Of a stretch of 64,000 nucleotides of DNA, positions 60,010 to 63,370 are shown piece by piece (the stretch's first letter is position 1; every line of letters begins with the position of its first letter). A program made the position numbers and the translations under genes. Origin of the DNA: Halothiobacillus sp. Lineage in GTDB: Bacteria > Pseudomonadota > Gammaproteobacteria > Halothiobacillales > Halothiobacillaceae. Location: NCBI GenBank assembly GCA_020061705.1, contig JAGUXT010000035.1:2345-66344 (forward strand), in the 5' to 3' direction. The notes beneath the pieces were generated by a model that was not told the DNA's origin, did no database searches, and saw only the letters and a program-made list of their open reading frames with translations.

Positions 60010-60156
60010 TCAAGAGTTGAGCTGGGAGAATTTATCTAAATACCCTTGTGTAACTGTGCCGATGCTGCAATGCTCAGGTCGGAAGCGCTCACGCACTTGG
60101 TCAAGCGGCTTGGGCGGATGACATGCAAGTGTGTTTAATTTTGGATATGAACCCAT
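60010..60156 (-). pseudogene. intI: N-terminal remnant of an integron integrase
   Basis: PPKPLDQVRERFRPEHCSIGT.TQGYLD resembles the IntI N-terminus (K.LDQ.RE.IR..HYS.RTE.AY..W); stops after ~48 aa, no catalytic domain; divergent from the cassette array. Confidence 0.7.
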
Positions 60157-60164
60157 GCTTAGGT
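60146..60164 (+). other. Degenerate attI-like site
   Basis: TATGAAC-ccatg-CTTAGGT (7-5-7; would be GTTRRRY with a G>C change); same geometry as 44377-44395. Confidence 0.35.
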
Positions 60165-60210
60165 TTACTCCGTGGGATGAGTATTCCAACGAAGGTGGAA
60201 GAAAAGTGGT

Positions 60211-60283
60211 TTTTAACTTTCCGTTCGAGCGGGACACCTTCGCCGACAAGTTGGTTTCGCGCCCCTTAGCTTGCTCGTTAGCA
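60211..60283 (+). other. attC site (73 bp) preceding the TIR cassette
   Basis: TTTTAAC-5 bp-GTTCGAGCGGGAC...GCCCCTTAGC-6 bp-GTTAGCA; canonical 5/6-bp spacers. Confidence 0.75.
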
Positions 60284-60308
60284 TTCAATCAAGTTTGGAG
60301 ACCATGAG

Positions 60309-61139
60309 TTGAGAAAACCCCGTTTATTTATCGCGTCCTCGGCTGAGAGTCTTCCAATCGCTGAAGCCGTAAATGTCAATTTGGATCACGATTTTGAAGT
60401 TACAATTTGGAAGAATGGGACATTCAGACTTTCCTCTTCAACGGTCGAAGACCTAGTGGAAAAATCATCAGCCGTAGATTTTGCATTGTTTATTTTCGCG
60501 CCTGATGACATCACTACAATTAGAAATATAAATGAGCATGTTGTTAGAGATAACGTAATATTCGAAATGGGTTTGTTTGTCGGGGCAATTGGAAAGTCTC
60601 GATCCTTTGTTTTGAAGCCGCGCGATGTGGAAATGCACTTGCCTACAGATCTTCTAGGGGTAACTCCTGCGGATTTTGACACAAACCGTTCTGATGGCGA
60701 TTTGGTTTCAGCAACTAACAGAGCATGCTCTTTGATTAAATCAGAGGTAGCGCGATTAGGGCTCATAAACCATGCTAGTCTTTCAGAATCCAAAACAATC
60801 ATTGCTAATCCAGCAAGCTATAAGCTAAAAGAACAAGACTACAGGTTCTTGGCGACTTGCCTACAAAGCCACGTTGCTAACCCTGTCGGCTTGCCGTTTC
60901 ATAGAATATCGAATAATTTTCGTGGCGTAAATGAAGCAATTCTGCACATCTCTCTTATTAAGCTCGAACGTATGGGACTAATAAGTAAGTCCATAGAGAC
61001 TGATCATCAGGACGGCTATGATTTTTATGTGTATTCAATCACTGAATTGGGTGTAGATGAGCTATTGAAAAATGAGGAATATATTCAACCAAAGCCGCCT
61101 AAGCCTGTGGGTAATTTCGATGAAGATATTCCATTCTAG
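60309..61139 (+). CDS. TIR-like (CAP12/Pycsar-type) domain + winged HTH + SSB-like acidic tail; cassette 1
   Basis: LFIASSAE, DFALFIFAPDD, RDNVIFEMGLFVG (catalytic Glu), LPTDLLGVT; wHTH pattern LIKLERMGLI...YSITELG; ends FDEDIPF; TTG start after GGAG; AT-rich. Confidence 0.88.
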   Translation: MRKPRLFIASSAESLPIAEAVNVNLDHDFEVTIWKNGTFRLSSSTVEDLVEKSSAVDFALFIFAPDDITTIRNINEHVVRDNVIFEMGLFVGAIGKSRSFVLKPRDVEMHLPTDLLGVTPADFDTNRSDGDLVSATNRACSLIKSEVARLGLINHASLSESKTIIANPASYKLKEQDYRFLATCLQSHVANPVGLPFHRISNNFRGVNEAILHISLIKLERMGLISKSIETDHQDGYDFYVYSITELGVDELLKNEEYIQPKPPKPVGNFDEDIPF

Positions 61140-61213
61140 TGCTAACAAAGTAATCGCACGAGCTAAGCTAAGTTAAGCTATGGCTTATGTTGCCCCATAT
61201 TGCGGGGTTAGAT
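61140..61213 (+). other. Degenerate attC of cassette 1
   Basis: TGCTAAC right after the stop codon, exactly complementary to GTTAGCA at the cassette start; candidate R' boxes GTTAAGC (61172) or GTTAGAT (61207); inner stem decayed. Confidence 0.6.
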
Positions 61214-61237
61214 TTTTGCGCGATAATTTTAGGGTTC

Positions 61238-62050
61238 ATGGAAGCTATGAAATCAGATGATATTGCATATAACTTATTAAAAAACCTTGGCTTTCATGTT
61301 GAGTCTATTCCGACATCTGACCACAATCAAAAAAAGGAGGCTGATTTCCTCGTAAGTTACAAGGGTCATACCGCAATCGTTGAATCCAAGTTAAAAGAAG
61401 ACAATCCTAAAATTTCTAAAGAAAATGAAGAAAAACTTGCTAAGGGCGAAGCGGCTATCGTCGAAGGCAGGCATGGACGCAACGAGACTTTCTCAGGGAT
61501 AATTAGAAAGGCGGACCAACAGCTTAAATCTTCAGCCGATAAACACCACAGCTTTAGGATTGTTTTATTTATATGCACCGGTTCAAATGTTAAGACCAAA
61601 AAACGTCAGTTCATAGATACCATTTATGGGAGCACAACAATAATTGAAGGAAACACTGAAAAAATTTGTTACTTCTATCGAAACTCGGATTTTTATCGAA
61701 GAAGATCCATTGATGCTGCGATAGTGTTTTACATTCTTGGTATGGACGCAGGTGTCGAGTTGTGCTTAAACCCATATAGCGCTGCCTATGAATCTCTAAG
61801 GAAATCTGCATTTATTGAGCCATTTGGTAACTGTGTGGTGGATCCATTTGAGTTGGAACGTAAAGGTTTGGCATACATACCGGATCCCGATATTGAGCGT
61901 ACGCTTCCTGAGTTACAAAAGATATTTAATTTTATTAACCCAATTCTTGAGAACTTAACAAATAAATATCGAACTGGATACTTGATGGCTGTCGACTACA
62001 ATTCACCAGAGCTTTCTATTAGAACCAAGGGGAGTTTTGAAGGGGAGTAA
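61238..62050 (+). CDS. Hypothetical protein with PD-(D/E)XK nuclease-like motif; cassette 2
   Basis: E-ADFLV...AIVESKLKE fits D-x(n)-E-x-K; AT-rich; start uncertain (61187, 61238 or 61247). Confidence 0.65.
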   Translation: MEAMKSDDIAYNLLKNLGFHVESIPTSDHNQKKEADFLVSYKGHTAIVESKLKEDNPKISKENEEKLAKGEAAIVEGRHGRNETFSGIIRKADQQLKSSADKHHSFRIVLFICTGSNVKTKKRQFIDTIYGSTTIIEGNTEKICYFYRNSDFYRRRSIDAAIVFYILGMDAGVELCLNPYSAAYESLRKSAFIEPFGNCVVDPFELERKGLAYIPDPDIERTLPELQKIFNFINPILENLTNKYRTGYLMAVDYNSPELSIRTKGSFEGE

Positions 62051-62114
62051 AGGAGACAGGCCACGGTTTTGCTGTTTTTAAGGGGCAATTCAATGTTTCC
62101 TCTCCTGCTACCAT

Positions 62115-62178
62115 GCCTAACTGGCGCTACAACGCGGACGGGCAAAATGCCGCCCGCCGGTAAAGCTAAACGTTAAGG
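62115..62178 (+). other. attC site (64 bp) closing cassette 2
   Basis: GCCTAAC-tggcg-CTACAACGCGGACGGGC-aaaat-GCCGCCCGCCGGTAAAGCTAAAC-GTTAAGG. Confidence 0.8.
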
Positions 62179-62189
62179 CATCCCAGTAA

Positions 62190-62927
62190 ATGCACGCACT
62201 CCCCTACCTTCAGCAAGTCATCTTCAAGCCGCCAGAATCGGCTGTCGGTCTTGAGTACCCTTTTTCCCTGCCCGTAGTTGCAAACTTGAGTTCACTCACA
62301 TTTCACCCGAAGGTCACATTTTTGATCGGTGAGAACGGCTCGGGGAAGTCGACCTTGATCGAAGCCTTGGCTATGGTGATGGGTCTAAATTCCGAAGGCG
62401 GGAATAGAAATACCCAGTTCCGTACCGAAGCCACCCATTCCGAGCTTTGGCGCTTCTTGAGGCCAGTGAAGAGCTTCATGCGCCCCAAGGATTGGTATTT
62501 CCTACGCGCCGAGAGCTTTTATAACGTCGCGTCGTATATGGATGCCATCGTCCACCCATCTTTGCAGGGCTATGGAGGCAGGTCGCTCCATGAGCAATCG
62601 CACGGTGAGGCGTTTATGGCGGTTCTGGCCAAGAAACTACGGGGTCATGGCTTCTACATACTCGACGAACCCGAGGCTGCACTCTCTCCCATGCGCCAGA
62701 TGTCTGCACTCGTCGAGATCCATCGTCTAGTCCAGGCCGAATCTCAATTCATCATCGCTACCCATTCCCCGATTCTGATGAGCTACCCTGATGCGAAGAT
62801 CATGCTGATCGACGAAGGTGGGCTCCGAGAGGTTGCTTACACCGAAACGGAGCACTATACGGTTACGCGAGACTTCCTGAATCGCCATGAGCGCATGCTC
62901 AACCATCTCCTGTCAGGCGAAGCCTAA
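62190..62927 (+). CDS. ABC/AAA_21-type ATPase (COG3910-like); cassette 3
   Basis: GENGSGKS Walker A, SLHEQSHGE signature, YILDEPE Walker B, IIATHSP H-loop; stop TAA lies inside GCCTAAC as in integron cassettes. Confidence 0.9.
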   Translation: MHALPYLQQVIFKPPESAVGLEYPFSLPVVANLSSLTFHPKVTFLIGENGSGKSTLIEALAMVMGLNSEGGNRNTQFRTEATHSELWRFLRPVKSFMRPKDWYFLRAESFYNVASYMDAIVHPSLQGYGGRSLHEQSHGEAFMAVLAKKLRGHGFYILDEPEAALSPMRQMSALVEIHRLVQAESQFIIATHSPILMSYPDAKIMLIDEGGLREVAYTETEHYTVTRDFLNRHERMLNHLLSGEA

Positions 62928-62983
62928 CCCCGCGACCCAATAGCCCACGCAGGACGTTTTAGCGGGCTTAATTTTGTTAACTG
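62922..62983 (+). other. Degenerate attC of cassette 3
   Basis: GCCTAAC overlapping the stop codon (near-complement of GTTAAGGC at the cassette start); remainder poorly palindromic and fused to a toxin fragment. Confidence 0.5.
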
Positions 62984-63090
62984 TTTTTGGAAAAAATGAG
63001 CAAGCCAACCTTTCGCAGGCTGAACGCAACACCCTGGCTAACTTGGTTGATCGGCTTGTCGCAACCGCACTGGAGAAAAATCATGGGTAA
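62968..63090 (+). pseudogene. 3' remnant of a RelE/HigB-like toxin gene
   Basis: Frame LILLTVFGKNEQANLSQAERNTLANLVDRLV...stop; no start codon (TAG just upstream); overlaps the antitoxin ATG. Confidence 0.75.
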
Positions 63091-63370
63091 GGCCTTTGAC
63101 AGTATCGCCCAAGGACTTCACGAAGCTATCGCACTCACTCAAGGTGATCCGGGTGTCGAAGCCCGCACTCACCAGCCTCAGCCTGTGAATGTTGTGGAAT
63201 TGCGCAAGAACCTTGGGCTGACACAAATGGAATTTGCCGCCAAGTTTTGTATCAGTATTGGAACGCTACGGCATTGGGAACGCGGTGATCGAACACCGCA
63301 TGGGCCTGCTTTGGCGCTTCTGAATGTTGTCGCCAAAGAACCGCAAGCCGTGCTCCGCGCCTTGGGCTAA
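63083..63370 (+). CDS. XRE/HTH antitoxin (NadS/HigA-like)
   Basis: AFDSIAQGLHEA, RKNLGLTQ.EFA..F.IS.GTLRHWERG.R.P.GPA.ALL. Confidence 0.9.
   Translation: MGKAFDSIAQGLHEAIALTQGDPGVEARTHQPQPVNVVELRKNLGLTQMEFAAKFCISIGTLRHWERGDRTPHGPALALLNVVAKEPQAVLRALG

What the first reader, a model, noticed from the sequence alone, without database searches (positions are those of the whole stretch)
60010..63370. Decayed sedentary integron with a defence-like cassette array
Seen: (i) an IntI-like N-terminal peptide on the minus strand, divergent from (ii) four co-oriented units delimited by TAAC...GTT sites at 60211, 61140, 62115 and 62922. (iii) Start and end boxes match within a cassette: GTTAGCA/TGCTAAC for the TIR cassette and GTTAAGGC/GCCTAAC for the ATPase cassette. 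(iv) Stop codons abut or overlap the R'' boxes. Established: this is integron geometry, integron arrays are enriched in anti-phage and toxin-antitoxin cassettes, and integrase-less arrays are called CALINs. Inference: the integrase was lost and the array is frozen unless an IntI acts in trans; the retained genes stay open and may be under selection.
Basis: partly seen in the sequence, partly recalled or inferred. Interest (0 to 1): 0.85.

Follow-up and report, generated by a model that had tools for sequence, protein, structure and literature searches.

The report
Decayed chromosomal integron remnant
This 3.5-kb low-GC island in a Halothiobacillus-like genome is the worn-out remains of a chromosomal integron, with the integrase cut to a stub and three captured genes plus a disarmed toxin-antitoxin pair; this is a known kind of relic, and its most interesting part is a widely travelled TIR gene cassette.

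Summary
The finding is largely right. Window 59.9-63.4 kb is a low-GC island wedged between the ATPase and permease genes of an ABC transporter that are adjacent in two more distant congeners.

- **Integrase stub:** only codons ~11-34 of intI survive (60046-60156, minus strand). They are 77% identical in DNA to the 5' end of an intact integron integrase in a same-genus genome. No IntI HMM detects the stub, and the genome has no intact intI.
- **attC model:** I built a covariance model from 26 bona fide attC sites of related genomes.
- **Other two sites:** 61140-61213 keeps both ends of the TIR cassette's native attC, but its middle has diverged. 62922 keeps only an R'' box.
- **Folding and attI:** none of the four sites folds better than shuffled sequence, and attI is gone.
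- **Cassette borders:** G|TTAGCA and G|TTAGAT are confirmed by homologous cassettes in unrelated genomes.
- **Neighbouring species:** two related genomes carry an intI stub at the same locus with different cassettes.
- **"Defence-like":** solid only for the TIR-wHTH cassette. Cassette 2 is an uncharacterised PD-(D/E)xK-like protein, cassette 3 a generic small ATPase, and the RelE-type toxin a 38-codon stump.

This is a new member of a known kind (CALIN / degraded sedentary integron).

The parts
57273..59753 (-). ABC transporter permease (FtsX/MacB-type, 826 aa), left flank of the island
   Evidence: Pfam FtsX and MacB_PCD. Adjacent to the ATPase gene in congeners G010 and G016.
59810..59943 (.). 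Pair of palindromic REP-like elements (TTCCCACGCTCCGGCGTGGGAA type), not part of the integron
   Evidence: Multi-copy on both strands across the genus. 91% identical copy at the same place in G007.
60046..60156 (-). intI stub: start codon at 60156, with homology to integron integrase residues ~11-34 only; the frame runs on to a stop at 60010
   Evidence: tblastn 67% identity over 24 aa, E 1.6e-4. 77% nt identity to the G008 intI 5' end, E 2e-13. No HMM hit.
60211..60284 (+). attC site 1 (R'' TTTTAAC ... R' GTTAGCA), left behind by a lost upstream cassette; it stands where attI should be
   Evidence: CM R1 25.7 bits, E 6e-4. Homologous to the attC family GTTCGAG-GGGACGC...GCGCCCCTCAAC of relatives. 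Two T.G pairs in the L box and two in the central stem. Bottom-strand fold z +0.23.
60279..61207 (+). Cassette 1: TIR-wHTH protein (ORF 60309-61139, 276 aa) ending in FDEDIPF
   Evidence: PF10137 E 4e-33. PADLOC TIR effector models E 9e-47. 76-90% identical proteins in many Gammaproteobacteria, lying in co-oriented arrays of small genes with attC-model hits in L050, L051 and L053. The border G|TTAGCA is shared.
61140..61213 (+). attC site 2 remnant (R'' TGCTAAC ... R' GTTAGAT)
   Evidence: Both ends match the native attC of the TIR cassette in Alcanivorax, Teredinibacter and a metagenome contig; the middle has diverged. No CM hit. Fold z -0.41.
61208..62173 (+). Cassette 2: PD-(D/E)xK-like protein (likely ORF 61247-62050, 267 aa; earlier in-frame starts at 61187 and 61238)
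   Evidence: Homologs are 260-270 aa with no Pfam family. Two of them also start about 40 nt after GTTAG(G/A)(C/T)TTTT. Model pLDDT 91. Foldseek top hits are Hjc, AF1548, BsmI and RecU. Invariant D33 and K48, near-invariant E46.
62115..62179 (+). attC site 3 (R'' GCCTAAC ... R' GTTAAGG), the best preserved site
   Evidence: CM R1 27.0 bits, E 3e-4. Resembles the G024 attC at L039 12850-12930. Two broken L-box pairs. Fold z -0.68.
62174..62975 (+). Cassette 3: small ABC/SMC-type ATPase (ORF 62190-62927, 245 aa)
   Evidence: AAA_21, SMC_N and AAA_15. More than 8000 homologs. The nearest ones sit outside cassettes and have no attC.
62922..62981 (+). attC site 4 remnant: R'' GCCTAAC overlapping the ATPase stop; the right half is missing or replaced; ends at GTTAAC inside the toxin stump
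   Evidence: No CM hit. Fold z -1.01. Homology with G007 resumes at TTTTGTTAACTG.
62974..63090 (+). C-terminal stump (38 codons) of a RelE-family (PF06296) toxin
   Evidence: The G007 orthologue is 76 aa and matches PF06296 positions 41-103 of 120. The window keeps only the last ~38 codons.
63083..63370 (+). Intact NadS/MqsA-like HTH antitoxin (95 aa), now orphaned
   Evidence: HTH_3 E 7e-8. NF041265 NadS E 1.4e-9, below its cut-off. 92% nt identity to G007.
63443..64000 (-). ABC transporter ATPase (3' part lies in the window), right flank of the island
   Evidence: ABC_tran E 1e-27. The complete 232-aa gene is in L060.

Best explanation
This is the relic of a sedentary chromosomal integron that once sat between the ATPase and permease genes of a ybbA/ybbP-like ABC transporter in a Halothiobacillus-like lineage.

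What is shown:
- The integrase gene is deleted down to about 35 codons.
- The first recombination site after the stub is an attC, not an attI.
- Three cassettes from donors of different GC content follow: TIR-wHTH at 41% GC, a PD-(D/E)xK-like protein at 38%, and a small ATPase at 54%. The host runs at about 64%.
- The array ends in a toxin-antitoxin module whose RelE-type toxin has lost its 5' two thirds.
- The genome has no integron integrase.

What is inferred:
- While IntI was active, cassettes entered at attI, each by site-specific recombination of the folded bottom strand of its attC, with the distal TA module stabilising the array.
- One deletion later removed most of intI. A second removed attI and the first cassette's gene, leaving its attC. 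A third ran from attC 4 into the toxin gene.
- The attC hairpins then accumulated pair-breaking substitutions because nothing selects for them any longer.
- The array is therefore immobile in this cell. At best, site 3 could still be used by an integrase supplied in trans.
- The three genes remain full-length. The TIR gene is probably still a working NADase-type defence gene; its family is under strong purifying selection. No expression data could be obtained.
For: - **Island:** low GC, 38-55% against about 64% in the host. It lies between genes that are adjacent in G010 and G016.
- **intI stub:** 77% nt identity to the intact intI of G008 (TIGR02249, 496 bits). tblastn E 1.6e-4. It is the only IntI-specific fragment in the genome.
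- **No intI:** nothing above the cut-off in the own genome, whereas 16 of 54 family genomes have one.
- **attC model:** R1 was built from 26 attCs with strong L''/L' covariation (58 double-sided cells; 0 of 500 shuffles reached that). It gives only two significant hits in the window, at 60211 and 62115, both on the + strand. It also recovers attCs that were not used in training.
- **Cassette borders:** shared with independent genomes.
- **Same locus elsewhere:** G002 has an intI stub covering aa 14-83, one cassette with a 50.9-bit attC, an IS, and a Phd/ParE module. G007 has a stub, an attI-like site, other cassettes, and the same TA end.
- **Decay:** poor folding of all four sites, toxin stump, and no attI similarity.
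- **Not an assembly artefact:** an independent assembly is identical over 8501 nt.
- **TIR gene:** dN/dS of 0.02-0.04 against homologs.
Against: - No IntI HMM recognises the stub.
- Two of the four sites fail the attC model. My model is home-made with a shortened calibration; IntegronFinder's own model was not run.
- The genome is a 62-contig MAG, so an intI on an unbinned contig cannot be excluded.
- The intI stubs of G000 and G007 are only 76% identical while the flanks are about 90%. The order of integrase loss and cassette turnover therefore cannot be resolved, and 'frozen' may not have held throughout.
- There are no expression data and no sigma-70-like promoter upstream of cassette 1.
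Confidence: 0.9

Rival explanations
1. A still-usable CALIN. The array has lost its own integrase, but one or more attC sites (above all site 3, perhaps site 1) remain recombinogenic, so cassettes can be excised or exchanged when a mobile integron or a related strain supplies IntI.
For: - Sites 1 and 3 still score 25.7 and 27.0 bits, inside the range of real attCs (22-70 bits; the native TIR attC in Alcanivorax scores 22.7).
- Proximal cassettes differ completely among G000, G002 and G007, although all three have only intI stubs.
- The own genome holds five better attC hits elsewhere.
Against: - Bottom-strand folds are no better than shuffles.
- T.G pairs on the top strand become A.C mismatches on the recombined bottom strand.
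- attI is missing, so insertion at the usual site is impossible.
- Sites 2 and 4 lack a recognisable L box.
- There is no IntI in the genome.
Confidence: 0.15
2. A generic defence or genomic island inserted by some other recombinase or by illegitimate recombination, with the TAAC...GTT motifs and the IntI-like peptide arising by chance.
For: - No HMM hit for IntI.
- Two of the four sites have no model support.
- The same intergenic spot holds a non-cassette RelE/NadS pair in G005 and G012, so it is an insertion hot spot.
Against: - The stub's DNA homology to several intact intI genes.
- Two model hits at the predicted places and on the predicted strand.
- Cassette borders at GTTRRRY shared with independent arrays that hold attC-model hits.
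- G002 has a 50.9-bit attC at the same locus.
Confidence: 0.03
3. A mis-assembly or binning chimera: foreign low-GC DNA joined into a high-GC contig.
For: A sharp GC drop, and the genome is a MAG.
Against: - An independent Logan assembly of another run is 100% identical over 8501 nt spanning both junctions.
- G002 and G007 show the same architecture.
Confidence: 0.01

Closest known systems
[quoted passage not shown]
   Same: Co-oriented cassettes with at least 2 model-detectable attC sites and no functional IntI nearby. [quoted passage not shown]
   Different: An intI stub is still visible, so the origin from a complete integron is directly shown. Half of the attC sites are already below model detection.
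Xanthomonas chromosomal integrons at ilvD with lineage-specific intI inactivation (10.1101/2025.06.18.660453 and the earlier work it cites)
   Same: A sedentary integron at a fixed chromosomal locus. The integrase is inactivated by large deletions in several related lineages. Arrays differ between lineages.
   Different: A different host (Halothiobacillus-like) and a different locus, inside an ABC transporter gene pair. The array is very short (3 cassettes), and decay has gone further, with attI lost and attCs eroded.
Defence cassettes in sedentary and mobile integrons (10.1101/2024.07.02.601686; 10.1101/2024.07.02.601719)
   Same: A compact single-gene candidate defence cassette (a TIR protein) carried in integron arrays, with a TA module at the distal end (compare PMC13108822).
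   Different: No phage assay exists for any cassette here. Only one of the three cassettes has a defence-family match. A word search for 'TIR' in the sedentary-integron paper found nothing.
CBASS Cap12 (TIR-STING) and Pycsar PycTIR effectors (PF10137)
   Same: The N-terminal 150 residues match the same TIR family (E 4e-33 Pfam; E 9e-47 PADLOC). The glutamate of the FE(M/L)G motif is invariant (E86).
   Different: There is no cyclase gene next to it in any context examined. The C-terminal half is a winged-helix-like domain, not STING, SAVED or a transmembrane domain. The protein ends in an SSB-like FD(E/D)DIPF tail.

Membership tests
Complete integron | intI gene encoding a full integron integrase | tested here: not met
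   Only residues ~11-34 remain. TIGR02249 gives no hit in the window and nothing above the cut-off in the genome. tblastn over the whole genome finds no other IntI-specific fragment.
Complete integron | attI site next to intI | tested here: not met
   The attI regions of G007 and G008 share TTTAGATAxACACCGATTTA...GGTGTCTA...GTTAG. Nothing similar lies in 60157-60284. The first site is a full attC that starts 54 nt from the intI start codon.
Complete integron | Pc promoter driving the cassettes | tested here: inconclusive
   No sigma-70-like match on the + strand upstream of 60309.
CALIN | At least two attC sites detected by a covariance model, clustered, without IntI | tested here: met
   Two hits of my model R1, at 60211-60283 and 62115-62178, on the same strand and 1.9 kb apart. 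IntegronFinder's own model was not available.
attC site | R''/R' boxes (RYYYAAC ... GTTRRRY) at cassette borders | tested here: met
   - Site 1: TTTTAAC / GTTAGCA.
- Site 2: TGCTAAC / GTTAGAT.
- Site 3: GCCTAAC / GTTAAGG.
- Site 4: GCCTAAC / GTTAACT.
These were read. The borders of cassettes 1 and 2 are confirmed by homologs.
attC site | L''/L' boxes pairing with an extrahelical base, and a stable bottom-strand hairpin | tested here: not met
   Sites 1 and 3 keep an L box, but with wobble or broken pairs. Sites 2 and 4 have none. Fold z-scores are +0.23, -0.41, -0.68 and -1.01. Two of three real attCs tested reached -3.4 and -4.6; the third (L034) gave -0.07.
CBASS / Pycsar effector | TIR domain of family PF10137 | tested here: met
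   E 4.4e-33, residues 5-124. PADLOC PDLC00731 E 9e-47 and PycTIR E 4e-37.
CBASS / Pycsar effector | Adjacent CD-NTase or pyrimidine cyclase, and a nucleotide-sensing domain | tested here: not met
   No cyclase in the window or in five other contexts. NCBIfam Cap12 models align only to residues 2-138, at 86-125 bits against a cut-off of 450. The C-terminus is wHTH-like.
Type II toxin-antitoxin, RelE (PF06296) with NadS/MqsA-like antitoxin | Intact toxin gene | tested here: not met
   38 codons are left. The 76-aa G007 copy covers profile positions 41-103 of 120. An intact 128-aa relative exists in G005.
Type II toxin-antitoxin, RelE (PF06296) with NadS/MqsA-like antitoxin | Intact HTH antitoxin | tested here: met
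   A 95-aa ORF, HTH_3 E 7e-8 and MqsA_antitoxin E 9e-6. NadS E 1.4e-9, at 38 bits, is below the 60-bit cut-off.
PD-(D/E)xK nuclease superfamily (cassette 2) | Restriction-endonuclease-like fold with a D...(D/E)xK motif | tested here: inconclusive
   Good model, pLDDT 91. All top Foldseek hits are PD-(D/E)xK enzymes, but E is 0.03-0.3 and TM-scores are low. D33, E46 and K48 are conserved. There is no Pfam or PADLOC family.

The most novel reading that the evidence does not exclude
The first cassette may encode a new single-gene anti-phage system spread by integrons. It is a TIR NADase fused to a winged-helix domain and ends in a copy of the SSB C-terminal tip (FD(E/D)DIPF).

The proposed roles are speculative. 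The tail could dock the protein onto SSB-interacting replication or repair proteins, or act as bait for phage proteins that target that tip. NAD+ depletion would follow on infection.

The facts behind the idea:
- The protein is 76-90% identical across Alcanivorax, Halomonas, Teredinibacter, Acinetobacter, Photobacterium and others.
- In every context examined it lies in a co-oriented array of small genes with no cyclase next to it.
Probability: 0.3. Interest if true: 0.65.

Novelty: new member of a known kind. Interest (0 to 1): 0.35.

Why it matters
The relic itself is ordinary, because degraded integrons and CALINs are as common as complete integrons.

It is useful as a clean worked example that catches several stages of decay at one locus: an integrase stub, a lost attI, graded erosion of four attC sites, and a disarmed toxin. 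Sister genomes show other stages. The example also documents integrons in Halothiobacillaceae; 16 of 54 genomes in the family have an intact IntI.

Practical value lies in the cassettes. The TIR-wHTH gene with an SSB-like tail is a compact candidate defence gene that has moved widely between bacteria and is easy to test. Cassette 2 belongs to a small family with no annotation.

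Tried and rejected
- **HMM and PDB searches of the intI peptide** (Pfam, NCBIfam, PDB) found nothing relevant. Homology appeared only against intI genes of congeners.
- **Rfam** on the island: no hit.
- **A strict hand-made attC heuristic** (RYYYAAC...GTTRRRY plus a hairpin) found 15 sites in a G019 array and none in the window. 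It was too strict for decayed sites and was replaced by the covariance model.
- **REP elements as attC sites:** I considered that the palindromic REP pair at 59810-59943 might be attC sites. I rejected this because each arm is self-palindromic, the elements occur genome-wide on both strands, and they lack AAC/GTT ends.
- **The GGGGTCAGACTC repeats** in G007 and G008 are REPs of a RAYT-type transposase, not attC sites.
- **An intact attC for the ATPase cassette in homologs:** the nearest homologs are not cassettes.
- **Cassettes 2 and 3 as a nuclease-ATPase pair:** rejected. They differ in GC (38% against 54%), an attC separates them, and they have separate homolog contexts.
- **TIR structure prediction** failed (pLDDT 52) because the alignment was too shallow.
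- **SSB family search** found no ssb in the MAG, so the host SSB tail could not be compared.
- **LexA box or promoter for the stub:** none seen by eye or by the scan.

Full report
**1. The place**

Window 59.9-63.42 kb has 38-55% GC, against about 64% on either side. It lies between two genes on the minus strand: an FtsX/MacB-type ABC permease (57273-59753) and its ABC ATPase (63443 onward).

In two same-genus genomes (G010, G016) these two genes abut. In G005 and G012 they are separated only by an intact RelE/NadS-type toxin-antitoxin pair. The island is therefore an insertion into a gene pair that is normally contiguous.

Named relatives are Halothiobacillus / Halothiobacillaceae MAGs. An independent assembly from another sequencing run is identical over 8501 nt across both junctions, so the island is not a chimera.

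**2. The integrase stub**

The minus-strand ORF from 60156 reads MGSYPKLNTLACHPPKPLDQVRERFRPEHCSIGTVTQ... Pfam, NCBIfam and PDB searches see nothing in it. The integron-integrase model TIGR02249 finds nothing above its cut-off anywhere in the genome; the best matches are two Xer-like genes.

The same model finds intact integrases in 16 of 54 genomes of the family. The 5' end of one of them (G008, 496 bits) is 77% identical to window 60062-60155 (E 2e-13). tblastn aligns IntI residues 11-34 to 60117-60046 at 67% identity, E 1.6e-4 for the whole window. This is the only IntI-specific fragment in the whole assembly. Homology stops near 60046, so about 90% of the gene is gone.

**3. An attC model**

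A simple search for hairpins with boxes recovered dozens of canonical attC sites next to intact integrases in related genomes. I aligned 26 of them (A2). The R''/R' and L''/L' pairing, with one extrahelical base, is strongly supported:
- 86.9% of cells are paired.
- 58 cells show changes on both sides.
- 0 of 500 shuffles reach the observed covariation.

The covariance model built from this alignment (R1) recovers attCs it was not trained on. These include a 96-nt family in G019 (35-49 bits) and sites on a metagenome contig that carries the TIR cassette (30-49 bits).

I ran R1 over all 64 kb, both strands, without filters. It gives two significant hits: 62115-62178 (+), 27.0 bits, E 3e-4, and 60211-60283 (+), 25.7 bits, E 6e-4. 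The next hit scores 11.4 bits. The clause required both no IntI similarity by HMM and no attC hits, so it is not met.

**4. The four sites one by one**

- **Site 1 (60211-60284).** It belongs to an attC family (GTTCGAG-x-GGGACGC...GCGCCCCTCAAC) also found in G005, G008, G019 and G024. In that family the L boxes show compensatory changes. The window copy has T.G pairs in the L box and in the central stem; on the recombined bottom strand these become A.C mismatches.
- **Site 2 (61140-61213).** It is not hit by the model. Its left end (TAG-TGCTAAC-AAAG) and right end (ATTGCGGxGTTA) are the ends of the TIR cassette's own attC as seen in Alcanivorax, Teredinibacter turnerae and a metagenome contig. 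The middle no longer matches.
- **Site 3 (62115-62179).** It resembles a G024 attC and keeps the central stem with a bulged A, but two L-box pairs are broken.
- **Site 4 (62922-62981).** It has only the R'' box, which overlaps the ATPase stop codon.

As bottom strands, the four sites fold no better than shuffled sequence (z +0.23, -0.41, -0.68, -1.01). Two intact attCs of relatives gave -3.4 and -4.6; a third real site (L034) gave -0.07.

**5. Cassette borders**

Homology between the window and unrelated genomes that carry the TIR gene starts exactly at G|TTAGCA and ends in the attC that begins TGCTAAC. The start and end boxes are exact complements, as expected for a cassette that once circularised.

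Two homologs of cassette 2, in Shewanella and in a metagenome contig, likewise start about 40 nt after GTTAGGC or GTTAGAC followed by a T run. This matches GTTAGAT at 61207 and argues for a start codon at 61247 rather than 61187.

The box match claimed for the ATPase cassette is only 5 of 7. Stop codons touch R'' for cassettes 1 and 3 but not for cassette 2.

**6. No attI**

G007 and G008 share an attI-like region (TTTAGATAxACACCGATTTA ... GGTGTCTA ... GTTAG) between intI and the first cassette. The window has nothing like it. A complete attC starts 54 nt from the intI start codon instead. The simplest reading is a deletion that took attI and the first cassette's gene and left that cassette's attC.

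**7. The distal end**

62974-63090 is the last 38 codons of a RelE-family toxin. The G007 orthologue is 76 aa and matches PF06296 positions 41-103 of 120. The NadS/MqsA-like antitoxin (63083-63370) is intact and 92% identical in DNA to that of G007.

Homology with G007 resumes at TTTTGTTAACTG. The break could be an integrase cut at a secondary GTT site, or a plain deletion running from attC 4 into the toxin gene. The absence of a recognisable right half in site 4 favours the deletion.

**8. Sister loci**

- **G002.** Its permease is 97% identical. It has an intI stub covering residues 14-83, then GTTAGAC, a 331-aa PDDEXK_3-like cassette ending GTCTAAC with a 50.9-bit attC, an IS, REPs, and a Phd/ParE module.
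- **G007.** It has a stub, an attI-like site, two small cassettes whose attCs are interrupted by REPs of a RAYT-type element, Phd/ParE, and then the same toxin stump and antitoxin.

The platform is therefore sedentary: the proximal end varies, and G000 and G007 share the distal toxin stump and antitoxin. The stubs of G000 and G007 end at about the same intI position but are only 76% identical, while the flanks are about 90%. I could not settle whether cassette turnover came before or after integrase loss.

**9. The cassettes**

- **Cassette 1.** This 276-aa protein has an N-terminal PF10137 TIR domain (E 4e-33; PADLOC TIR effectors E 9e-47). Its C-terminal domain is winged-helix-like (weak PadR/Lrs14 hits; pLDDT 73-88 in an otherwise poor model). 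It ends in FDEDIPF; the family consensus is FDDDIPF. It has 76-90% identical relatives in many gammaproteobacterial genera. In the contexts examined it sits in co-oriented arrays of small genes with no cyclase beside it; the attC model hits sites in three of these loci. dN/dS against two of them is 0.02-0.04.
- **Cassette 2.** It has no Pfam or PADLOC family. A confident model (pLDDT 91) finds only PD-(D/E)xK enzymes as its best structural matches, all weakly. D33, E46 and K48 are conserved. In Shewanella a homolog heads a three-gene cluster.
- **Cassette 3.** It is a 245-aa ABC/SMC-type ATPase from a very large family. Its nearest members sit among ordinary chromosomal genes without attC. Its PADLOC hits are to generic ATPase modules.

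'Defence-like' is therefore justified for cassette 1, open for cassette 2, and weak for cassette 3.

**10. How it works now**

With no IntI in the assembly, no attI, and eroded attCs, the array cannot rearrange on its own. This is an inference from sequence; it was not tested.

The genome does hold five better attC hits on other contigs, and a well-folding attC-like site lies at 43449-43564 in this window. The lineage has therefore had integron traffic beyond this locus.

Expression is unknown.

**11. Comparison and verdict**

The element fits the CALIN category of IntegronFinder (PMC9024848). It parallels the Xanthomonas integrons, whose integrases were repeatedly inactivated by deletions (10.1101/2025.06.18.660453). 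Defence cassettes and stabilising TA modules in integrons are established (10.1101/2024.07.02.601686, 10.1101/2024.07.02.601719, PMC13108822).

This is a new member of a known kind. The TIR-wHTH cassette is the part worth bench work.

Noticed in passing
window 43449-43564 (minus strand): An attC-like 116-nt hairpin with L boxes GTTCAACAGGAC / GCCTGTTAAC and an R'' that reads ATCTGAC. It folds well (z -3.7 to -3.8) but scores only 9.1 bits (E 4.4) with my model, because of a long central insert.
   Followed up: partly
window 59810-59943; also G000 contigs C43, C9, C21, C5 and many congeners: A pair of about 22-nt perfect palindromes (TTCCCACGC-TCCG-GCGTGGGAA type), about 60 nt apart. It is a REP/BIME-like element, multi-copy on both strands across the genus.
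   Followed up: partly
L030 (G008:C1) 7440-8280 and 8960-8990; L016 (G007) 4880-4965, 5670-5760, 6178-6400: A REP-associated tyrosine transposase (RAYT-like, 235 aa) flanked by GGGGTCAGACTCGATTG repeats sits inside the G008 cassette array. The same repeats interrupt attC sites and abut the intI stub in G007, so REPs seem to contribute to integron erosion here.
   Followed up: no
L069 (G005:C1) 5244-5931 and L070 (G012:C19): The same ATPase/permease junction holds an intact RelE (128 aa) plus NadS-like antitoxin pair with no attC. It is co-oriented with the ABC genes, which is opposite to the window's TA remnant, and the antitoxin is only 36% identical. The junction is a recurrent insertion spot.
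   Followed up: partly
L050-L052 (Alcanivorax sp., CP073758 and metagenome contigs): The 90%-identical TIR cassette lies 0.9 kb from a 57-88-aa Phage_int_SAM_4 ORF on the opposite strand. This is a second array in which this cassette sits next to a truncated integrase.
   Followed up: no
G000 contigs C44:42474-43202, C44:990-1059, C13:104250-104312, C42:36810-36913: Five attC-model hits (29-49 bits) elsewhere in the same genome, all scoring better than the sites in the window. There is no integrase in the assembly, so these are further CALIN or solo attC sites.
   Followed up: no
L056 (Shewanella sp. 10N.286.48.B5) 4001-7797: A homolog of cassette 2 heads a tight three-gene cluster (268, 723 and 268 aa) with no Pfam families. 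This may be the complete system from which the window's single gene derives.
   Followed up: no
whole genome G000: The Pfam SSB model found no ssb gene in this MAG, which is rated 100% complete. The TIR protein is the only ORF in the assembly that ends in [DE][DE][DE][IL]PF.
   Followed up: partly
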